A stretch of DNA of 64,000 nt, from positions 1 through 64,000 of IMG/VR virus record IMGVR_UViG_3300022821_000013. One strand, written 5' to 3'. The notes beneath the pieces were generated by a model. It worked only from the letters and a program-made list of their open reading frames with translations. It made no database searches and was not told the origin of the DNA. Shown one piece after another: positions 5,369-10,614 of the stretch. Each line of letters opens with the position of its first letter. Position 1 is the stretch's first letter. The translations under genes and the position numbers were made by a program. The DNA comes from a virus.

Positions 5369-5839
5369 CTATTTAACTAAGTCATCTCTTAATTTAGTTA
5401 AGACCTTTCCTAACAAATTTAAACCTAACCACTGTTCAGGGTCTTGTGCTCTTGGATCATCTTCAAGTAAACCAATACCCCAAATCTTATCACATGGAGA
5501 AGCATCAACTAAAGTTTTATCTTTAGTATCAAGTAATTTATTTAATAATTTTTCGTTTTGTGTGAACTTTGCATGGTTTCCTTTATATACAATTTCTTCA
5601 CATACAACTGACCATTTTTCAGCAATGAAATTTGAAACTTCTCTACCTAGTTTCTTCTGTTGTTTTGGATGTAAAGTATTCATAATCTTTGAAGCAGTTA
5701 ATTCATCACCAAAGAATAAAGCCTTTTGTTGCATCATATACTGTTCTGTACAATTATACATATCACCATCTATTTCAAATTTACAAGGATGCCATTGACT
5801 AAATGGCCCTGACCAGAAAAATTCATAATTCTCATTCAT
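5369..5839 (-). CDS. NADAR family hydrolase (YbiA-like)
   Basis: PFSQWHP, TEQYMMQQKALFFGD, KKLGREV, AKFTQN, ASPCDKIWGIG, GLNLLGKVL motifs. Confidence 0.92.
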   Translation of the reverse strand: MNENYEFFWSGPFSQWHPCKFEIDGDMYNCTEQYMMQQKALFFGDELTASKIMNTLHPKQQKKLGREVSNFIAEKWSVVCEEIVYKGNHAKFTQNEKLLNKLLDTKDKTLVDASPCDKIWGIGLLEDDPRAQDPEQWLGLNLLGKVLTKLRDDLVK

Positions 5840-6389: not shown

Positions 6390-6407
6390 ATATACCTTAG
6401 TTTAAAG

Positions 6408-6480
6408 AGGTGAATCCCAGATTCGAACTGGGGTAAACGAGTTTGCAATCCGTTGTCTGAAACCACTCGACTAATTCACC
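6408..6480 (-). tRNA. tRNA-Cys(GCA)
   Basis: Acceptor GGTGAAT/ATTCACC, U73, loop TTGCAAA, CCCAG-TTCGAAT-CTGGG. Confidence 0.85.
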
Positions 6481-6493
6481 ATTATTATATTTT

Positions 6494-6566
6494 GTACCCA
6501 AGGTAGGATTCGAACCTTTATCTCCAATTGGAGGTAGGATAATGTTGCCAATTACACCAAATGTAC
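6494..6566 (-). pseudogene. degenerate tRNA-Gly(TCC)-like
   Basis: TGGTGTAATTGGCAACA D-arm, loop CCTCCAA, TTCGAAT; acceptor and T stems only partly paired. Confidence 0.55.
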
Positions 6567-6578
6567 ATTTCTAACGAG

Positions 6579-6652
6579 TTGACCTGGACGGACTTGAACC
6601 GTCGATCTTCGAATTATGAGTTCGCTGCTTTGACCAACTAAGCTACAGATCA
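6579..6652 (-). tRNA. tRNA(CAT), probably Ile2 (lysidine type)
   Basis: Acceptor TGATCTG/CAGGTCA, GCGAA-CTCATAA-TTCGA arm without the initiator GGG/CCC; Ile2 versus elongator Met is an inference. Confidence 0.8.
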
Positions 6653-6659
6653 ATATTTG

Positions 6660-6734
6660 GGTGAATGATGGGCTACGATCCCACGACCTTCGGTTTCACA
6701 GACCGACGCTCTAACCAACTGAGCTACAAACACC
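6660..6734 (-). tRNA. tRNA-His(GTG)
   Basis: G-1:C73, TCGGT-CTGTGAA-ACCGA; non-canonical T-loop ATCGTAG and two acceptor mismatches. Confidence 0.8.
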
Positions 6735-6745
6735 ATAATAAAAAG

Positions 6746-6829
6746 TTGCGGAAGACAGATTCGAACTGTCATTATACTTCTCGTCTCTGGGTTATGAGCC
6801 CAGGATGTTAACCATTACACCATTCCGCA
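6746..6829 (-). tRNA. tRNA-Met(CAT), initiator-like, with expanded variable region
   Basis: CTGGG-CTCATAA-CCCAG (three G-C pairs), acceptor TGCGGAA/TTCCGCA, 16-nt variable region AGACGAGAAGTATAAT. Confidence 0.8.
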
Positions 6830-6837
6830 ATAACTTG

Positions 6838-6910
6838 TGATCTTACAGGAACTCGAATCCTGATTGCAACTTCGAATGAGTTGTGTCCTAACCATTTAGA
6901 CGATAAGACC
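6838..6910 (-). tRNA. tRNA-Glu(TTC), non-canonical anticodon loop
   Basis: Glu-like body (TCGTCTAAATGGTTAGGAC), CAACT-CATTCGA-AGTTG with A33 and G37. Confidence 0.78.
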
Positions 6911-7131: not shown

Positions 7132-9237
7132 TTATTTTATATATTTTGAATTTATAGTTAGAACATCACTTGCTCTAACAACATTTTTATTATCTAACGT
7201 ATCATCCTCATACTCATCCGTAACATATAGCATATCAGCGTTATCAATGTCAAATGTTAATTGTGATGGTGCATAGTACATACTAAATAAGTCTTTTAAT
7301 GTAGTTTTATCAGTTAGATTAACTATAGACCTTAACACATCAGATACATTCACATCATTATTGATAACTGTGTTATGATGCATACCACCATTTCTAAAAT
7401 ATAAATCAGTCCAGATTATCTGTTTAGTTTCAATATCAAAGATAAATGGAACTGCTACCTTAGAATTTCCATCTAATTTCATAGAATACTTAACTGTTTT
7501 AGGATCATAAATCTCATTTGAATTAGGACGTTCTCTTAGCATAAAACCTGCGAAACATTCTTTATGTTCTTTAAATGTTGGGCCACTATAAACATTTATA
7601 TTTAATGTTATATATCTAACTTCTGATTTTACTACTTTATTCATAGTTATATCAATAAATTCAGATGCTCCATTTGGTGCTCGTGTAATATCACCAGAAT
7701 GTACTATTTCTAATTCTTTAATTTTTAATTGTTGAAATGAACAATGAGTTACCATTTCAAATTTATCATTATATAATGTAGCTGACAAATCAATATCTTG
7801 TCCTATCCAATGACAAAACATTCGTAAAGTTATATTTTTATTTTTATCTTCTAAATCAATCTTAGATCCTCTACCATAAGAGAATTGACCTTCCGATACA
7901 CTTCTTTGTTGTGTAGGTAATGTATATTGACTTAATCTTTCATCTATATATACTTTCTTACCTTCTGACGTTCCTTGTAATCTCAATCTTAAATGTGAGT
8001 TTATACAATTTAGATAGTCTTGTACTAATTGCAATTGCCAATCTGTAAATTTCTTAAATTGCACTCTTCTAACTTTAGATGTAGAACCTTTAGGAAATAC
8101 TAATCTACTATCATAACCTTTTAATATAACTTGTAAGTGTCCTTTAGCTTGTAATAATACTCGTGTTGATACTTCTGATATACATTCTTCTAAATTATCA
8201 ATACCTAATTTACCAGAGTTATATCCATCAGAGATATTAATTAAAGTTACTATGTTTCTTACGTATTCACCTGGTTTCTTCATTAGAGAATTAATAGCTG
8301 AATGATAGTCTTTATTTTTTAAAGATTCATTTATAATAGTGCTTAAACTCTCTACATTTTTATTATTTCTAAATGATCTCAATACATCTGAAAATTTGGA
8401 TTGTTTTAGAAATTCACCACAATGTAATGAATGTGTTAATTTAATCCATTTATTTTTATGTCTCTTGAAGTCATCTACGTTAAACACTTTATCAAGTCTA
8501 TTAGTTATTCTACGTCTAAGACTTTTAGATAATGATTTAAACTTGGTATTTTCAGTTAATGATACATCACCACCAGATAGATATGTACAGTAACGTAGTA
8601 TATCAGTTGGTGTTTTGAGTAATTCTAAATTATCAGTATATTCAACTACATAACATAAGTTTTCTTTATATGGAATATTTATAGTATTAATATCATATAT
8701 CTCTCCAAAGTGAGCTATTAATACCTTAACTGATTCCTTATCGAAATCAGATAGAGAATCATTAGTAGATAATAAATCACATAATATTTCTATCATACCA
8801 TTAATATCTATTATACCTATACGTTTGAAGTTTAATACGTCAATATCAGTTTGTCTTGGCTTTTTATCTATATCTGGATAGTATTCGCCTAATGACAAAT
8901 AATGTATTATAGCGTTAAAGTATAGCTCAAATTCAGACATATTATAAACTTCTTCTGGGAAGTTTGGATAAAATGTTTTATATGAACGTGCACCTTTAAA
9001 TTCTTCCAATATAAAAATTATATCAATTAAATTTAAGTTATATCGTAATACAAGTTTAAGTAAATGAGAATCTATCGTATAACCCAAATTATTCAATATT
9101 TGGTTATATGCTATAGTCTCTTTTATTGATTGTTTGTAATTATTAATATCAATATCTTCTAATACTGTAGAAGATGAGTCCATTATGAATATAGATGATC
9201 TATATTTTAATGCTATTTTTAATAGGTCTTTATTCAT
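7132..9237 (-). CDS. Ro/TROVE-like helical protein with C-terminal TerD domain
   Basis: N-terminal YKTFYPNFPEEVYNMSEFELYFNAIIHY, TPTDILRY, KPGEYVR motifs; C-terminal TerD signature DIDLSA...HSGDITRAPNGASEFIDI. TerD domain is well supported; Ro-like N-terminus is from family recall. Confidence 0.75.
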   Translation of the reverse strand: MNKDLLKIALKYRSSIFIMDSSSTVLEDIDINNYKQSIKETIAYNQILNNLGYTIDSHLLKLVLRYNLNLIDIIFILEEFKGARSYKTFYPNFPEEVYNMSEFELYFNAIIHYLSLGEYYPDIDKKPRQTDIDVLNFKRIGIIDINGMIEILCDLLSTNDSLSDFDKESVKVLIAHFGEIYDINTINIPYKENLCYVVEYTDNLELLKTPTDILRYCTYLSGGDVSLTENTKFKSLSKSLRRRITNRLDKVFNVDDFKRHKNKWIKLTHSLHCGEFLKQSKFSDVLRSFRNNKNVESLSTIINESLKNKDYHSAINSLMKKPGEYVRNIVTLINISDGYNSGKLGIDNLEECISEVSTRVLLQAKGHLQVILKGYDSRLVFPKGSTSKVRRVQFKKFTDWQLQLVQDYLNCINSHLRLRLQGTSEGKKVYIDERLSQYTLPTQQRSVSEGQFSYGRGSKIDLEDKNKNITLRMFCHWIGQDIDLSATLYNDKFEMVTHCSFQQLKIKELEIVHSGDITRAPNGASEFIDITMNKVVKSEVRYITLNINVYSGPTFKEHKECFAGFMLRERPNSNEIYDPKTVKYSMKLDGNSKVAVPFIFDIETKQIIWTDLYFRNGGMHHNTVINNDVNVSDVLRSIVNLTDKTTLKDLFSMYYAPSQLTFDIDNADMLYVTDEYEDDTLDNKNVVRASDVLTINSKYIK

Positions 9238-9262: not shown

Positions 9263-9401
9263 TTAAATTGTGATTATGAAATCGTTTTATACTTCTGCTC
9301 TACCAACTGAGCTACTAACCGATTATTACGATTAGGTAGGACTCGAACCTACGACCTGAAGTTCCTTAATGTTAGAAGTATGATTTCATATAGCAATTTA
9401 A
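9263..9401 (-). ncRNA. Y-RNA-like (YrlA-type architecture) tRNA mimic, array unit 4
   Basis: Terminal stem with conserved array motifs encloses a T-arm (GTAGG-TTCGAGT-CCTAC) placed before a D-arm (TAGCTCAGTTGGTAGAGC), i.e. a circularly permuted tRNA with no anticodon loop. Confidence 0.8.
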
Positions 9402-9410
9402 GTAAAAAAT

Positions 9411-9472
9411 GTCTGTAATTGAAATTTCGATTAATATCCAAAATTATAGAAGTATGAAATTTCATAGCAGAC
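9411..9472 (-). ncRNA. short stem-loop ncRNA, array unit 3
   Basis: GTCTG-CTA-TGAAATTTC-ATACTTCTA-loop-CGAAATTTCA-ATTA-CAGAC. Confidence 0.75.
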
Positions 9473-9493
9473 TTAAATTAATTTTAAAAGAAA

Positions 9494-9561
9494 GGGTTGT
9501 AATTATAAAAACGTAGTTTGCGTTTTGTATATTTTAGAAGTATGTTTCTATATAGCAACCC
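9494..9561 (-). ncRNA. short stem-loop ncRNA, array unit 2
   Basis: GGGTTG-CTA-TATAGAAAC-ATACTTCTA-loop-CGTTTTTATA-ATTA-CAACCC. Confidence 0.75.
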
Positions 9562-9568
9562 ATAGTAT

Positions 9569-9644
9569 TATTTGTAATTGATATTTCGTTTCTTGTTATA
9601 TTCATGGTATAGTAGTTTAGAAGTATGAAATATCATAGCAAACA
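9569..9644 (-). ncRNA. short stem-loop ncRNA, array unit 1
   Basis: TGTTTG-CTA-TGATATTTC-ATACTTCTA-loop-CGAAATATCA-ATTA-CAAATA. Confidence 0.75.
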
Positions 9645-9676
9645 GTTTAATTTTTATTTTGTGTCAATTCTTAATA

Positions 9677-9707
9677 CAAACTTACGAAAAAGAAATGACA
9701 TATCCTA
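9677..9707 (-). promoter_or_regulatory. Bacteroidota-type promoter driving the ncRNA array and Ro-like gene
   Basis: TTTCTTTTTCG-TAAGTTTG -7 element; the -33 element is degenerate (TAGG). Confidence 0.75.
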
Positions 9708-9717
9708 ATTTTATTTT

Positions 9718-10614
9718 TTAGTCAAATAACTTATCTATAATTTTAGCTACATAAGTAGAATTAATATCTTCTTTCTTAGAATCTTGTAATATATCTACTA
9801 ACGCATACATATATGCTTGATCAACACCAGTTAATTGTTCAGTTAAGACATTAATATCAGACATATCTATTTCAGATATTTGCCACATTATTTTTAATTG
9901 TTCTCCAGCAGATATTCTCCAACCACGTTCTAAGAACTTCTTAGTTCTAAATATAGATGCTATTGGATATAAACTACCTTTATATACTAAAGTCCTCGAT
10001 AACAAGCATTCTAATGCTTCTGGGTGCAATACCAACGTATCATTATCATAATCATAATAATTCATAGCATGAACAAAATCATAATTACTATGGATAGTTT
10101 GTGGATCACCATAAAATCTAGTTACTAATTGAATCTTATCTGTTAATGTTATAGCATTACTTGATATGAACACAGGTGCATATTTACCATTTTCATCTGT
10201 AACAAAATCACCGAAATCATCAGAATCTGTTTCATTTGTTACGATACCCTTACCACCTCTTGCTTCAATATAAACTCTATCTTCATCTACACCTTTAATA
10301 TTACAAATAGACTTTTCAATTACATTCATAGGAACTTCATCTAATTTATTAGATACTCTAATACTATTTAATTTATTAATGTAATATTTAGCTACTTGTA
10401 TATTGCAATCTTTAGTTTTAAAATATATATCATAATCATTTACTGGATCACCTAATAACATAGATGCTATAGAGCCACCAGTTACGATTGTATTTTTTCT
10501 ACATAATTTTTGTATATTCTCATCATCTATACTATCTATCCAATTAGATACTTTTTTATTTAGTTCCTTTCTGATACCTGATTTCTTTCTACCATATTTA
10601 ATATCTACACTCAT
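9718..10614 (-). CDS. pol-beta superfamily nucleotidyltransferase-like protein
   Basis: TGGSIASMLLGDPVNDYDIYF (GG...DxD) and YDFVHA motifs, reminiscent of the CCA/poly(A) polymerase head. Confidence 0.7.
   Translation of the reverse strand: MSVDIKYGRKKSGIRKELNKKVSNWIDSIDDENIQKLCRKNTIVTGGSIASMLLGDPVNDYDIYFKTKDCNIQVAKYYINKLNSIRVSNKLDEVPMNVIEKSICNIKGVDEDRVYIEARGGKGIVTNETDSDDFGDFVTDENGKYAPVFISSNAITLTDKIQLVTRFYGDPQTIHSNYDFVHAMNYYDYDNDTLVLHPEALECLLSRTLVYKGSLYPIASIFRTKKFLERGWRISAGEQLKIMWQISEIDMSDINVLTEQLTGVDQAYMYALVDILQDSKKEDINSTYVAKIIDKLFD

What the first reader, a model, noticed from the sequence alone, without database searches (positions are those of the whole stretch)
9263..9707. Array of four co-varying structured ncRNA units upstream of a Ro-like/TerD gene
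Seen: four tandem units share the fold stem1-(TG)CTA-stem2-CATACTTCTA-variable-CG-stem2'-AT(T/C)A(CA)-stem1'. Stem sequences differ in each unit but stay complementary (TGATATTTC/GAAATATCA, TATAGAAAC/GTTTTTATA, TGAAATTTC/GAAATTTCA, TATGAAATC/GATTTCATA), while the internal-loop and ATACTTCTA motifs are almost invariant. Three units have short unrelated loops (about 17-29 nt); the fourth carries a tRNA-like domain. The array lies between a promoter and the 701-aa gene. Established: Ro60/Rsr proteins bind the terminal stem of adjacent Y RNAs, whose other end is an effector module. Inference: a phage-encoded RNP with one protein and several interchangeable RNAs, where the variable loops could be guides, decoys or adaptors. 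The conserved motif is not the canonical Ro60-binding helix.
Basis: partly seen in the sequence, partly recalled or inferred. Interest (0 to 1): 0.88.

Follow-up and report, generated by a model that had tools for sequence, protein, structure and literature searches.

The report
Y-RNA-like stalk RNAs with TerD-fold partner
Four small structured RNAs, one carrying an inside-out tRNA mimic, sit in front of a 701-residue phage protein; the same RNA-protein pair recurs in every complete related locus examined in phages and bacteria, which suggests an apparently undescribed RNA-protein particle that resembles the Ro60/Y-RNA particle.

Summary
On the minus strand at 9266-9643 lie four tandem units. 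Each has a 5-bp outer stem, a CUA/AUUA internal loop, a 9-bp covarying stem and the invariant motif AUACUUCUA, followed by a variable apical part. Unit 4 carries a T-arm, closed acceptor-like hairpin and D-arm module. This module matches Rfam YrlA below threshold (38 bits against 69).

A covariance model built from short units found 125 copies in 54 loci. Of these, 122 are on the gene's strand and all lie beside a homologue of the 701-aa protein. Whole-genome scans of four cultured phages and five bacteria gave hits only at that gene. The stems pair in 93% of cells, against 62% in shuffles.

The protein has no Pfam domain and no profile similarity to TROVE. Its C-terminal part has a TerD fold (Z 13.4). 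Its helical N-terminal part resembles Ro60 only weakly, though Ro60/TROVE was the best broad match in the VIA PDB and BFVD libraries. No other gene is conserved nearby. Five bacterial genomes that carry the pair have no TROVE protein.

My best reading is an RNA-protein particle that works like Ro60/Y RNA. It is not a demonstrable member of that family. Binding and expression were not tested. This scan reached the same reading earlier on two other genomes.

The parts
9677..9684 (-). Candidate promoter -7 box TAAGTTTG (Bacteroidota type, TAnnTTTG), 34 nt upstream of unit 1
   Evidence: 11 of the 12 TAAGTTTG copies in the window lie on the coding (minus) strand, several of them in intergenic gaps. 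The general pattern is only mildly enriched (127 found against 101 expected). This is suggestive, not shown.
9570..9643 (-). Stalk RNA unit 1: outer stem, CUA loop, 9-bp stem, AUACUUCUA, 30-nt apical part with a possible 4-bp UUCU/AGAA helix
   Evidence: The R1 model scores it at 52.1 bits, E 4e-12.
9495..9560 (-). Stalk RNA unit 2 (22-nt apical part; one G-U pair in the 9-bp stem)
   Evidence: The R1 model scores it at 57.0 bits, E 1.5e-13.
9411..9472 (-). Stalk RNA unit 3 (18-nt apical part)
   Evidence: (fold z -5.1). The R1 model scores it at 52.8 bits, E 2.6e-12.
9266..9398 (-). Stalk RNA unit 4: the same stalk, with an 89-nt apical module
   Evidence: R1 aligns only its 5' part (15.9 bits) because of the long insert.
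9293..9360 (-). Circularly permuted tRNA-like module of unit 4: anticodon-stem 3' strand, variable loop, T-arm, 7-bp closed acceptor-like hairpin, D-arm, anticodon-stem 5' strand
   Evidence: Rfam YrlA RF02553 matches at 37.9 bits against a gathering score of 69, covering model positions 23-85 of 114. ARAGORN calls no tRNA here.
7132..9237 (-). 701-aa partner protein (P0001). It belongs to a large family with no Pfam domain and is related to NCBIfam NF041916.
   Evidence: 2443 representatives at 50% identity; E 1.7e-83, 281 bits, below the cut-off of 600.
7903..9237 (-). N-terminal alpha-helical solenoid (residues 1-445), rich in conserved Arg, Lys and His
   Evidence: AF2 models. VIA alignment to Ro60 of Thermus phage phiLo gives Z 8.7 over 253 residues, and to D. 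radiodurans Rsr Z 7.6 over 262 residues. A BFVD TROVE protein is the first match outside the family. No sequence similarity to TROVE was found.
7333..7857 (-). TerD-fold beta-sandwich (residues about 461-635) with conserved acidic motifs (DIDLS, HSGD, GASEFID)
   Evidence: VIA: 2qz7_B Z 13.4 and 2kxt Z 12.1. Foldseek: 3ibz E 8e-6. Invariant columns are listed.
6407..6910 (-). Downstream row of five tRNA genes on the same strand (context; not conserved in the bacterial loci)
   Evidence: tRNA genes flank the module in 17 of 26 phage loci but in only 3 of 30 bacterial loci.

Best explanation
The four units are genes for small non-coding 'stalk' RNAs. They are probably transcribed with the 701-aa gene as one precursor and then cut apart. 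Together with that protein they form a ribonucleoprotein built on the same plan as Ro60/Y RNA. The protein recognises the invariant stalk: the G-C pairs closing the outer stem, the CUA/AUUA internal loop, the closing C-G pair of the 9-bp stem, and the single-stranded (A/U)U(A/C)CUUCUA tract. The variable apical modules point outwards and act as interchangeable adaptors. The tRNA-shaped module of unit 4 would recruit, or compete for, tRNA-binding factors. Shown here: the RNA architecture, its covariation, and the exclusive genomic linkage between the RNA and the protein across phages and bacteria. Inferred: physical binding, processing into discrete RNAs, and the adaptor role. The phage setting, inside tRNA gene rows, suggests a role in tRNA or RNA surveillance, or in countering host attacks on tRNA. 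That last step is speculation.
For: (1) The structure is real. RNAalifold predicts both helices independently. In 124 distinct copies, 93.1% of cells pair, against 61.7% in shuffles and 38-51% when the partner is slid. There are 605 double-change cells against 177 in shuffles, and 13 of 15 pairs covary. (2) The linkage is exclusive. There are 125 R1 hits in 54 loci, 122 of them on the gene's strand and the other 3 divergent, all within about 2.5 kb of the gene. Whole-record scans of four cultured phages (812 kb) and five bacterial genomes (about 32 Mb) hit only beside the homologue. Listeria phage A511, which lacks the gene, has no hit. The window's own 93-kb record has only these four units. 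(3) No other protein-coding neighbour is conserved across 55 loci. The RNA is therefore the protein's only constant companion. (4) The units lie upstream, downstream or divergent, in 1 to 8 copies, with unrelated apical parts. That fits trans-acting RNAs better than a 5' leader. (5) Roughly a third of loci contain a permuted tRNA-like module of YrlA type. All eight such units tested score 36-47 bits on Rfam YrlA. (6) Five bacterial genomes that carry the pair encode no Pfam TROVE protein. The YrlA-like RNAs there cannot belong to a canonical Rsr. (7) The protein's helical domain has many invariant Arg, Lys and His residues. Its only broad structural matches are Ro60/TROVE proteins. [quoted passage not shown]
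Against: There is no expression or binding data. No RNA-seq run holding this DNA is on record. Seed units were picked with a scanner that required pairing, and the 125-copy alignment was fitted to the model, so the pair counts lean towards the structure. The location-based controls do not share this bias. The protein has no recognised RNA-binding domain by sequence. Resemblance to Ro60 is within the range that helical repeats can reach by chance (notes). Foldseek against PDB with the N-terminal model did not list Ro60. In the window the array abuts the ribosome-binding region of the ORF with no terminator, so a cis role cannot be excluded. The apical loops show no recognisable target.
Confidence: 0.58

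Rival explanations
1. Cis-acting leader. The stalks are operator sites in the 5' untranslated region of the protein's own mRNA. The protein binds them to regulate its own translation or stability, as ribosomal-protein leaders do. There would be no free RNA species.
For: In the window and in most loci the array lies directly upstream on the same strand. It ends 28 nt before the start codon and no terminator lies between. Strict co-occurrence with the gene is also what a leader would show.
Against: In several loci the units lie downstream of the gene (L001, L009, L010, L015, L023, L024, Weasels2) or on the opposite strand (L049-L051). Copy number runs from 1 to 8. Apical parts are unrelated and often are complete tRNA mimics, which a simple operator does not need. 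In L034 the units lie 1.4-1.7 kb upstream.
Confidence: 0.1
2. Decoys or substrates. The RNAs, above all the tRNA-shaped one, are baits for host tRNA-directed enzymes such as anticodon nucleases, modification enzymes or RNase P. The protein protects, loads or recycles them. It would not use them as adaptors.
For: In phages the module sits within tRNA gene rows (17 of 26 loci). The D- and T-arms of unit 4 are nearly identical over about 20 nt to genuine tRNAs in the same salt-lake metagenomes (tables 5c and 8). The closed acceptor-like stem has 7 bp, the length at which M. smegmatis YrlA becomes an RNase P substrate (PMC4201824).
Against: The tRNA-like module is missing from about two thirds of loci. 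Most units have only short AU-rich hairpins. The pair is also common in bacterial loci that mostly have no tRNA genes nearby, so a purely anti-defence decoy role would not explain those. The mimic has no anticodon loop, which is the usual target of anticodon nucleases.
Confidence: 0.13
3. Guide RNAs. The variable apical loops base-pair with target RNAs or DNA and direct the protein to them. This was one of the first reader's options.
For: The constant scaffold with a variable insert, repeated in tandem, resembles guide-RNA systems in outline.
Against: The longest complement of each loop in the 93-kb phage record is 11-14 nt, no better than shuffled loops (fraction of shuffles at least as good: 0.11-0.81). 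Many loops fold into small AU-rich hairpins or tRNA-like bodies rather than open single strands. The protein has no recognisable nuclease domain.
Confidence: 0.05
4. A canonical Ro60/Rsr-YrlA system that has diverged beyond sequence recognition. The protein would be a true TROVE homologue whose vWA domain was replaced by TerD, and the RNAs would be true YrlA descendants. This differs from the best explanation in ancestry, not in mechanism.
For: Ro60/TROVE proteins are the only structures that align over most of the helical domain (253-329 residues). A phage TROVE protein is the first non-family match in BFVD (probability 1.00, E 0.016). The tRNA-like module has the same permuted order as YrlA and hits its Rfam model. 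The gene layout parallels rsr loci (PMC4201824).
Against: hhalign of a 34-member family alignment against 28 TROVE proteins gives probability 0.13. No member hits Pfam TROVE at E up to 1. The Rsr-binding motif GNCGAAN0-1G is absent and is replaced by a different conserved stalk. Z-scores of 6-9 are within the chance range for helical repeats.
Confidence: 0.3

Closest known systems
YrlA-type bacterial and phage Y RNAs with Ro60/Rsr (Rfam RF02553; Chen et al. 2014, PMC4201824)
   Same: Several small RNAs are encoded within 2 kb of one protein gene, mostly upstream on the same strand. Each has a long stem formed by its 5' and 3' ends, with conserved internal-loop features. One RNA per locus often carries a tRNA mimic in the order T-arm, acceptor-like hairpin, D-arm, and others are short hairpins like YrlB or Yrn2. 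The system occurs in both bacteria and phages.
   Different: The partner protein has no TROVE or vWA domain by sequence and ends in a TerD fold. The stalk lacks GNCGAAN0-1G. It has GG-CUA, a 9-bp stem and (A/U)U(A/C)CUUCUA instead. Units score 36-47 bits against a gathering score of 69. The tRNA-like module is optional, present in about a third of loci. Copy number reaches eight.
Ro60/TROVE proteins (Pfam PF05731 plus vWA; PDB 1yvp, 2nvo, 9l5y)
   Same: The N-terminal domain is a helical repeat of similar size. Ro60/TROVE is the best broad structural match in the VIA PDB and BFVD libraries (and a weak rank-29 match in Foldseek PDB), and it is followed by a metal-binding C-terminal domain.
   Different: No sequence or profile similarity was found. 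The C-terminal domain is a TerD beta-sandwich, not vWA. The protein is about 170 residues longer. Whether it forms a ring could not be checked.
TerD family tellurite-resistance proteins (PDB 2qz7, 2kxt, 3ibz)
   Same: The beta-sandwich fold is shared (Z 12-13), and conserved acidic residues lie at motifs like those that bind calcium in TerD.
   Different: The Pfam TerD model does not match. The domain is fused to a 445-residue solenoid. There is no Ter operon context. No link between TerD proteins and RNA turned up in the paper searches run here.
NCBIfam NF041916, MXAN_6230/SCO0854 family RING domain-containing proteins
   Same: Clear sequence homology (E 1.7e-83) covers the solenoid and TerD regions. 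The ESM Atlas gives TM 0.83 for residues 1-450.
   Different: The window protein lacks the RING domain and scores 281 bits against a cut-off of 600. No function is published for that family. Whether its members have stalk RNAs was not tested.
Abundant unannotated RNAs near the tRNA genes of Listeria phage CKA15, with CKA15_055 as an HHpred Rsr-like protein (PMC12282133)
   Same: It is a large phage in which highly transcribed non-coding regions next to tRNA genes lie upstream of a putative Ro-like RNA-binding protein. The authors proposed these are Y RNAs.
   Different: CKA15_055 is about 57 kDa and was not found by tblastn with this family. The related phage A511 has no R1 hit. It is therefore a parallel case and not the same family.

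Membership tests
YrlA / bacterial Y RNA (Rfam RF02553) | Score at or above Rfam's gathering threshold (69 bits) | tested here: not met
   Unit 4 scores 37.9 bits and units 1-3 give no match. Eight tRNA-like units from other loci score 36-47 bits.
YrlA / bacterial Y RNA (Rfam RF02553) | tRNA-like module in the order T-arm, acceptor-like hairpin, D-arm | tested here: met
   Unit 4 aligns to model positions 23-85 with high posterior probability. Units 1-3 lack the module, as YrlB-type RNAs do.
YrlA / bacterial Y RNA (Rfam RF02553) | GNCGAAN0-1G motif near the 5' end, the proposed Rsr contact (PMC4201824) | tested here: not met
   The 5' strands read (G/U)UGCUAU followed by the stem and AUACUUCUA. 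No G-N-CGAA occurs on the 5' side of any unit. The Rfam alignment omits the stalk.
YrlA / bacterial Y RNA (Rfam RF02553) | Encoded next to a Ro60/Rsr (TROVE) gene | tested here: not met
   The neighbouring protein has no TROVE match. No TROVE is found in the 93-kb record or in five bacterial carrier genomes.
YrlA / bacterial Y RNA (Rfam RF02553) | Bound and stabilised by the neighbouring protein | not testable with these tools
   This needs RIP, EMSA or Northern blots in a deletion strain.
Ro60 / TROVE protein | Pfam TROVE (PF05731) match or profile-level homology | tested here: not met
   No hit for P0001 or for 33 homologues at E up to 1. hhalign of A1 against the TROVE alignment A5 gives probability 0.13. 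The A1 profile finds no Ro60 among PDB sequences.
Ro60 / TROVE protein | Toroidal HEAT-like repeat fold | tested here: inconclusive
   VIA gives 9l5y_B Z 8.7 over 253 residues at 4.7 A, 2nvo_A Z 7.6 over 262 residues, and 1yvp_A Z 6.1 over 329 residues. A BFVD TROVE protein ranks 5th with probability 1.00. Foldseek against PDB with the N-terminal model does not list Ro60. Ring closure could not be checked.
Ro60 / TROVE protein | C-terminal vWA domain | tested here: not met
   The C-terminal domain has a TerD beta-sandwich fold. Genuine TROVE proteins carry PF25045 or PF13519.
TerD family | TerD beta-sandwich fold | tested here: met
   2qz7_B Z 13.4 (149 residues aligned, 2.4 A), 2kxt Z 12.1, and 3ibz Foldseek E 8e-6.
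TerD family | Pfam TerD (PF02342) sequence match | tested here: not met
   No match for any of 34 members at E up to 1. One homologue is named a TerD family protein by NCBI.
NCBIfam NF041916 (MXAN_6230/SCO0854 RING family) | Score above the curated cut-off and presence of the RING domain | tested here: not met
   The score is 281 bits against a cut-off of 600. The best stretch covers profile positions 381-729 of 842, and the RING domain is not listed for any member. The protein is homologous to the family but not a member.
Stalk RNA plus ~690-aa solenoid-TerD protein (family defined in this scan, model R1) | Outer stem, C(U/C)A loop, 9-10 bp stem, CUUCUA tract, next to a homologue of the protein | tested here: met
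   Units 1-3 score 52-57 bits on R1 and unit 4 fits by the pattern scanner. The protein is 30-41% identical to the family.

The most novel reading that the evidence does not exclude
This is a widespread, previously undescribed two-component ribonucleoprotein. It consists of a solenoid-plus-TerD protein with a set of modular stalk RNAs, some carrying inside-out tRNA bodies. It arose independently of Ro60/Y RNA or split from it so long ago that only the architecture remains. It is used by bacteria, and by large phages inside their tRNA gene rows, to survey or manipulate tRNA-related RNA metabolism.
Probability: 0.4. Interest if true: 0.9.

Novelty: new variant of a known kind. Interest (0 to 1): 0.8.

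Why it matters
Ro60/Y RNA is one of the few RNA-protein particles shared by animals and bacteria, and its bacterial role is still poorly understood. A second particle with the same modular logic but a partner protein unrelated by sequence would show that a protein with interchangeable stalk RNAs, including a tRNA mimic, is a recurring solution and not a one-off. The partner family is large (more than 2400 representatives at 50% identity). It would also give a function to that large unannotated protein family and explain unannotated gaps in many phage genomes. It offers tractable systems as well: Xanthomonas phage XacN1, Lactobacillus phage LpeD, Rhodococcus phage Weasels2, Rhodobacter phage RcXuper and several marine gammaproteobacterial isolates. 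Those systems could be used to ask what a tRNA-shaped adaptor does. In phages, the position inside tRNA rows links it to the current question of how phages protect translation from host attacks on tRNA.

Tried and rejected
- **Sequence searches with P0001:** Pfam, PHROGs and PDB sequence searches gave nothing informative. Only PHROG 33734 of unknown function matched.
- **TROVE homology:** Profile-profile comparison with 28 genuine TROVE proteins was negative.
- **Foldseek against PDB with the N-terminal model:** No significant match.
- **Conserved neighbours:** An all-against-all BLAST of ORFs from 55 loci found none. The only other large clusters are antisense shadows of the gene itself.
- **Nucleotidyltransferases:** Those annotated near the gene in XacN1 and RcXuper are not similar to the window's upstream ORF.
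- **Guide hypothesis:** The apical loops have no excess complementarity to the 93-kb phage record. The host genome is unknown, so it could not be searched.
- **Expression:** No RNA holder is listed among public runs.
- **Contigs of four DNA runs laid on the region:** These showed only identical copies of the phage and cross-matches of unrelated tRNAs to the D- and T-arms. There was no strain variation to exploit.
- **Promoter and terminator scan:** The sigma-70 promoter scan was not above shuffles and found no terminator.
- **Listeria phage A511:** It was tested as a possible link to the CKA15 transcriptome paper and has no R1 hit.
- **Rfam at gathering threshold on 18 related loci:** Only tRNAs and one GOLLD RNA were found.
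- **Literature searches:** Searches linking TerD, TROVE, Y RNA, SCO0854 or MXAN_6230 found no description of this pair.
- **Aliikangiella genome scan:** It gave no hit because only 150 of 3692 candidates were scored. Its locus does carry units.
Full report
**What is there**

The window's genes in this region run on the minus strand. Read on that strand, the 380 bases between the stop of ORF 9718-10614 and the start of the 701-aa ORF (7132-9237) contain four tandem units:
- unit 1, 9570-9643
- unit 2, 9495-9560
- unit 3, 9411-9472
- unit 4, 9266-9398

Each unit has the following parts in order:
- a 5-bp outer stem
- a 5' CUA
- a 9-nt arm beginning with U and ending with C
- the invariant AUACUUCUA
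- a variable part
- the complementary 9-nt arm
- AUUA (AUCA in unit 4)
- the outer stem's 3' arm

The outer stems are GUUUG/CAAAU, GGUUG/CAACC, GUCUG/CAGAC and AAUUG/CAAUU. Single-sequence folding recovers both helices in units 1, 3 and 4; the fold of unit 2 splits the inner stem (z -2.7 to -5.1). The variable parts are 30, 22, 18 and 89 nt long.

In unit 4 the variable part is a tRNA body written inside-out. It runs from an anticodon-stem 3' strand and variable loop, through the T-arm and a 7-bp acceptor-like stem closed by a loop, to the D-arm and the anticodon-stem 5' strand. Rfam's YrlA model aligns exactly this module (positions 23-85 of 114) at 37.9 bits. That is below the gathering score of 69, and the stalk is not aligned. 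ARAGORN and Rfam's tRNA model do not call it a tRNA.

**Is it more than chance, and does it recur?**

The 701-aa protein (P0001) has more than 870 relatives of about 690 aa in the 90% clusters and 2443 representatives at 50% identity. None carries a Pfam domain.

I fetched 28 viral and 30 bacterial loci encoding relatives. A simple motif search, followed by a pattern scanner, showed the same architecture next to the gene in most of them. The family consensus is:
- an outer stem ending in GG
- C(U/C)A
- a 9-10 bp stem closed by C-G and U-A
- UCCUUCUA
- a variable part
- A-rich bases, then YAG
- the 3' arm
- (C/A)U(U/C)U
- CC, starting the outer stem's 3' arm

The window's AUACUUCUA is a variant that is also seen in L012.

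I aligned 18 short units (A4). RNAalifold predicted the two helices without guidance. I then built a covariance model, R1. R1 finds 125 copies at E of 1e-3 or better in 54 sources totalling 463 kb. Of these, 122 are on the gene's strand and three are divergent. All lie within about 2.5 kb of the gene, and every locus with intact flanks has at least one.

On the 124 distinct copies, 93.1% of cells pair, against 61.7% in shuffles and 38-51% when partners are slid. There are 605 double-change cells against 177 in shuffles, and 13 of 15 pairs show compensatory change. These counts lean towards the structure. The seeds were picked with a pairing filter and the alignment was fitted to the model.

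The location controls do not share this bias:
- Four cultured phage genomes (812 kb) gave eight hits, all beside the distant homologue (22-26% identity) and in unannotated gaps.
- Five bacterial genomes of 4.5-9.3 Mb gave eight hits, all at the gene.
- Listeria phage A511, which lacks the gene, gave none.
- The window's own 93-kb record has only these four units.

**What is the protein?**

AlphaFold2 with a 34-sequence alignment gives a confident model (pLDDT 83.5, pTM 0.81). It has a helical solenoid (residues 1-445), a beta-sandwich (about 461-635) and a small C-terminal domain.

The beta-sandwich is a TerD fold (2qz7_B Z 13.4, 2kxt Z 12.1, 3ibz Foldseek E 8e-6). The family's invariant acidic motifs lie in it.

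For the solenoid, the only structures that align over most of the domain are Ro60 proteins:
- Thermus phage phiLo Ro60: Z 8.7, 253 residues
- D. radiodurans Rsr: Z 7.6, 262 residues
- Xenopus Ro60: Z 6.1, 329 residues with the full model

Generic repeat proteins align only about 90-105 residues. In the viral structure library, the first match after four family members is a phage TROVE protein (probability 1.00, E 0.016).

Against this, Foldseek on PDB does not list Ro60 for the N-terminal model, and Z-scores of this size are within the chance range for helical repeats. Sequence tests are also negative. There is no Pfam TROVE or TerD hit for any of 34 members, no Ro60 among PDB sequences with the family profile, and hhalign against 28 genuine TROVE proteins gives probability 0.13.

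NCBIfam shows clear homology to the uncharacterised MXAN_6230/SCO0854 RING family, below its cut-off and without the RING. The ESM Atlas agrees.

The TerD label therefore holds at fold level. The Ro-like label is a reasonable analogy and a possible remote homology, but membership is not demonstrated.

**Context**

No other protein-coding gene is conserved around the module in 55 loci. In phages the module usually sits among tRNA genes on the same strand (17 of 26 loci). In bacteria it almost never does (3 of 30). About a third of loci contain a permuted tRNA-like unit. All eight tested hit Rfam YrlA at 36-47 bits. Five bacterial carriers have no TROVE protein anywhere in their genomes. These YrlA-like RNAs are therefore not partners of a canonical Rsr.

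In the window, the array ends 28 nt before the start codon with no terminator. A Bacteroidota-type -7 box, TAAGTTTG, lies 34 nt before unit 1. This octamer occurs 12 times in the window and 11 of those are on the coding strand. Co-transcription with the gene, followed by processing, is therefore likely but not shown.

**How it most likely works**

The evidence fits a ribonucleoprotein in which the protein binds the invariant stalk and the variable apical parts act as exchangeable modules. This is the logic established for Ro60 and Y RNAs, where one RNA per species is tRNA-like and others are short hairpins (PMC4201824).

What is shown is the structure, the covariation and the exclusive linkage. 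Binding, processing and the adaptor role are inferred. A function in tRNA or RNA surveillance, or in countering host attacks on tRNA, is speculation based on the phage context.

I considered four rivals:
- **An autoregulatory 5' leader.** This is weakened by downstream and divergent copies, by multiple copies, and by elaborate apical modules.
- **Decoys for host tRNA enzymes.** This is possible for the tRNA-like unit. It does not explain the short units or the bacterial loci.
- **Guide RNAs.** The loops show no complementarity signal.
- **A canonical Ro60-YrlA system diverged beyond recognition.** This differs from the best explanation only in ancestry.

**Novelty**

The RNA is not in Rfam 15. 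It gives no gathering-level hit in the window or in 18 related loci. Its tRNA-like members fall below the YrlA threshold. Literature searches found no description of the pair.

The nearest published case is Listeria phage CKA15. It has abundant unannotated RNAs near its tRNA genes and an HHpred Rsr-like protein (PMC12282133). That is a different protein and, judged by A511, a different RNA.

This scan reached the same reading earlier on two other genomes (e1-3475769 and e1-5341767). My analysis was done before I saw those notes, and it agrees with them.

I class the finding as a new variant of a known kind, namely Y-RNA-like particles. There is a substantial chance that it is an independent invention.

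Noticed in passing
L011:5684-6150: A full-length GOLLD RNA (Rfam RF02032, 184.7 bits) with an embedded tRNA lies about 700 nt downstream of the family gene in one viral contig. That contig therefore carries stalk RNAs, tRNAs and GOLLD side by side.
   Followed up: no
L007:2601-2729: One stalk unit carries a tRNA-like body in the normal order (D-arm before T-arm) and not the permuted one. ARAGORN calls it a tRNA of undetermined type with a two-base anticodon. Both orientations of the tRNA graft therefore exist on the same stalk.
   Followed up: partly
window 1088, 2969, 5876, 9677, 10675, 12586, 28922, 40617, 46395, 53814, 58769 (minus strand): The octamer TAAGTTTG occurs 12 times and 11 of those are on the coding strand, several in short intergenic gaps. 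It looks like this phage's version of the Bacteroidota -7 promoter box.
   Followed up: partly
P0001 residues about 290-637; NCBIfam NF041916: The family is homologous to the MXAN_6230/SCO0854 RING-domain proteins of Actinomycetota and Myxococcota. A version fused to a RING finger therefore exists in model organisms. Whether those genes have stalk RNAs was not checked.
   Followed up: no
L009:6193-6269, L011:2091-2169 and 5747-5821, L024:454-542, L030:6115-6185: Several related phage contigs carry suppressor-type tRNAs (anticodons CUA or UUA) next to the module. This hints that these phages may read stop codons as sense codons.
   Followed up: no
window 9296-9315 and 9334-9358: The D-arm and T-arm of the mimic match, over about 20 nt with 0-2 differences, many ordinary tRNA genes on unrelated contigs of the same salt-lake metagenomes. 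The mimic keeps generic tRNA arms and not phage-specific ones.
   Followed up: partly
window 9372-9390 and 9293-9300: In unit 4, the 3' GAAGU next to the D-arm can pair with either of two partners. One is the proximal ACUUC just before the variable loop, which gives the tRNA-like fold used by the Rfam alignment. The other is the conserved AUACUUCU motif, which gives the 8-bp helix chosen by the energy fold. Two alternative conformations are therefore possible.
   Followed up: partly
The window's upstream ORF is not detectably similar to either annotated nucleotidyltransferase, so this is not a conserved third component.
   Followed up: yes
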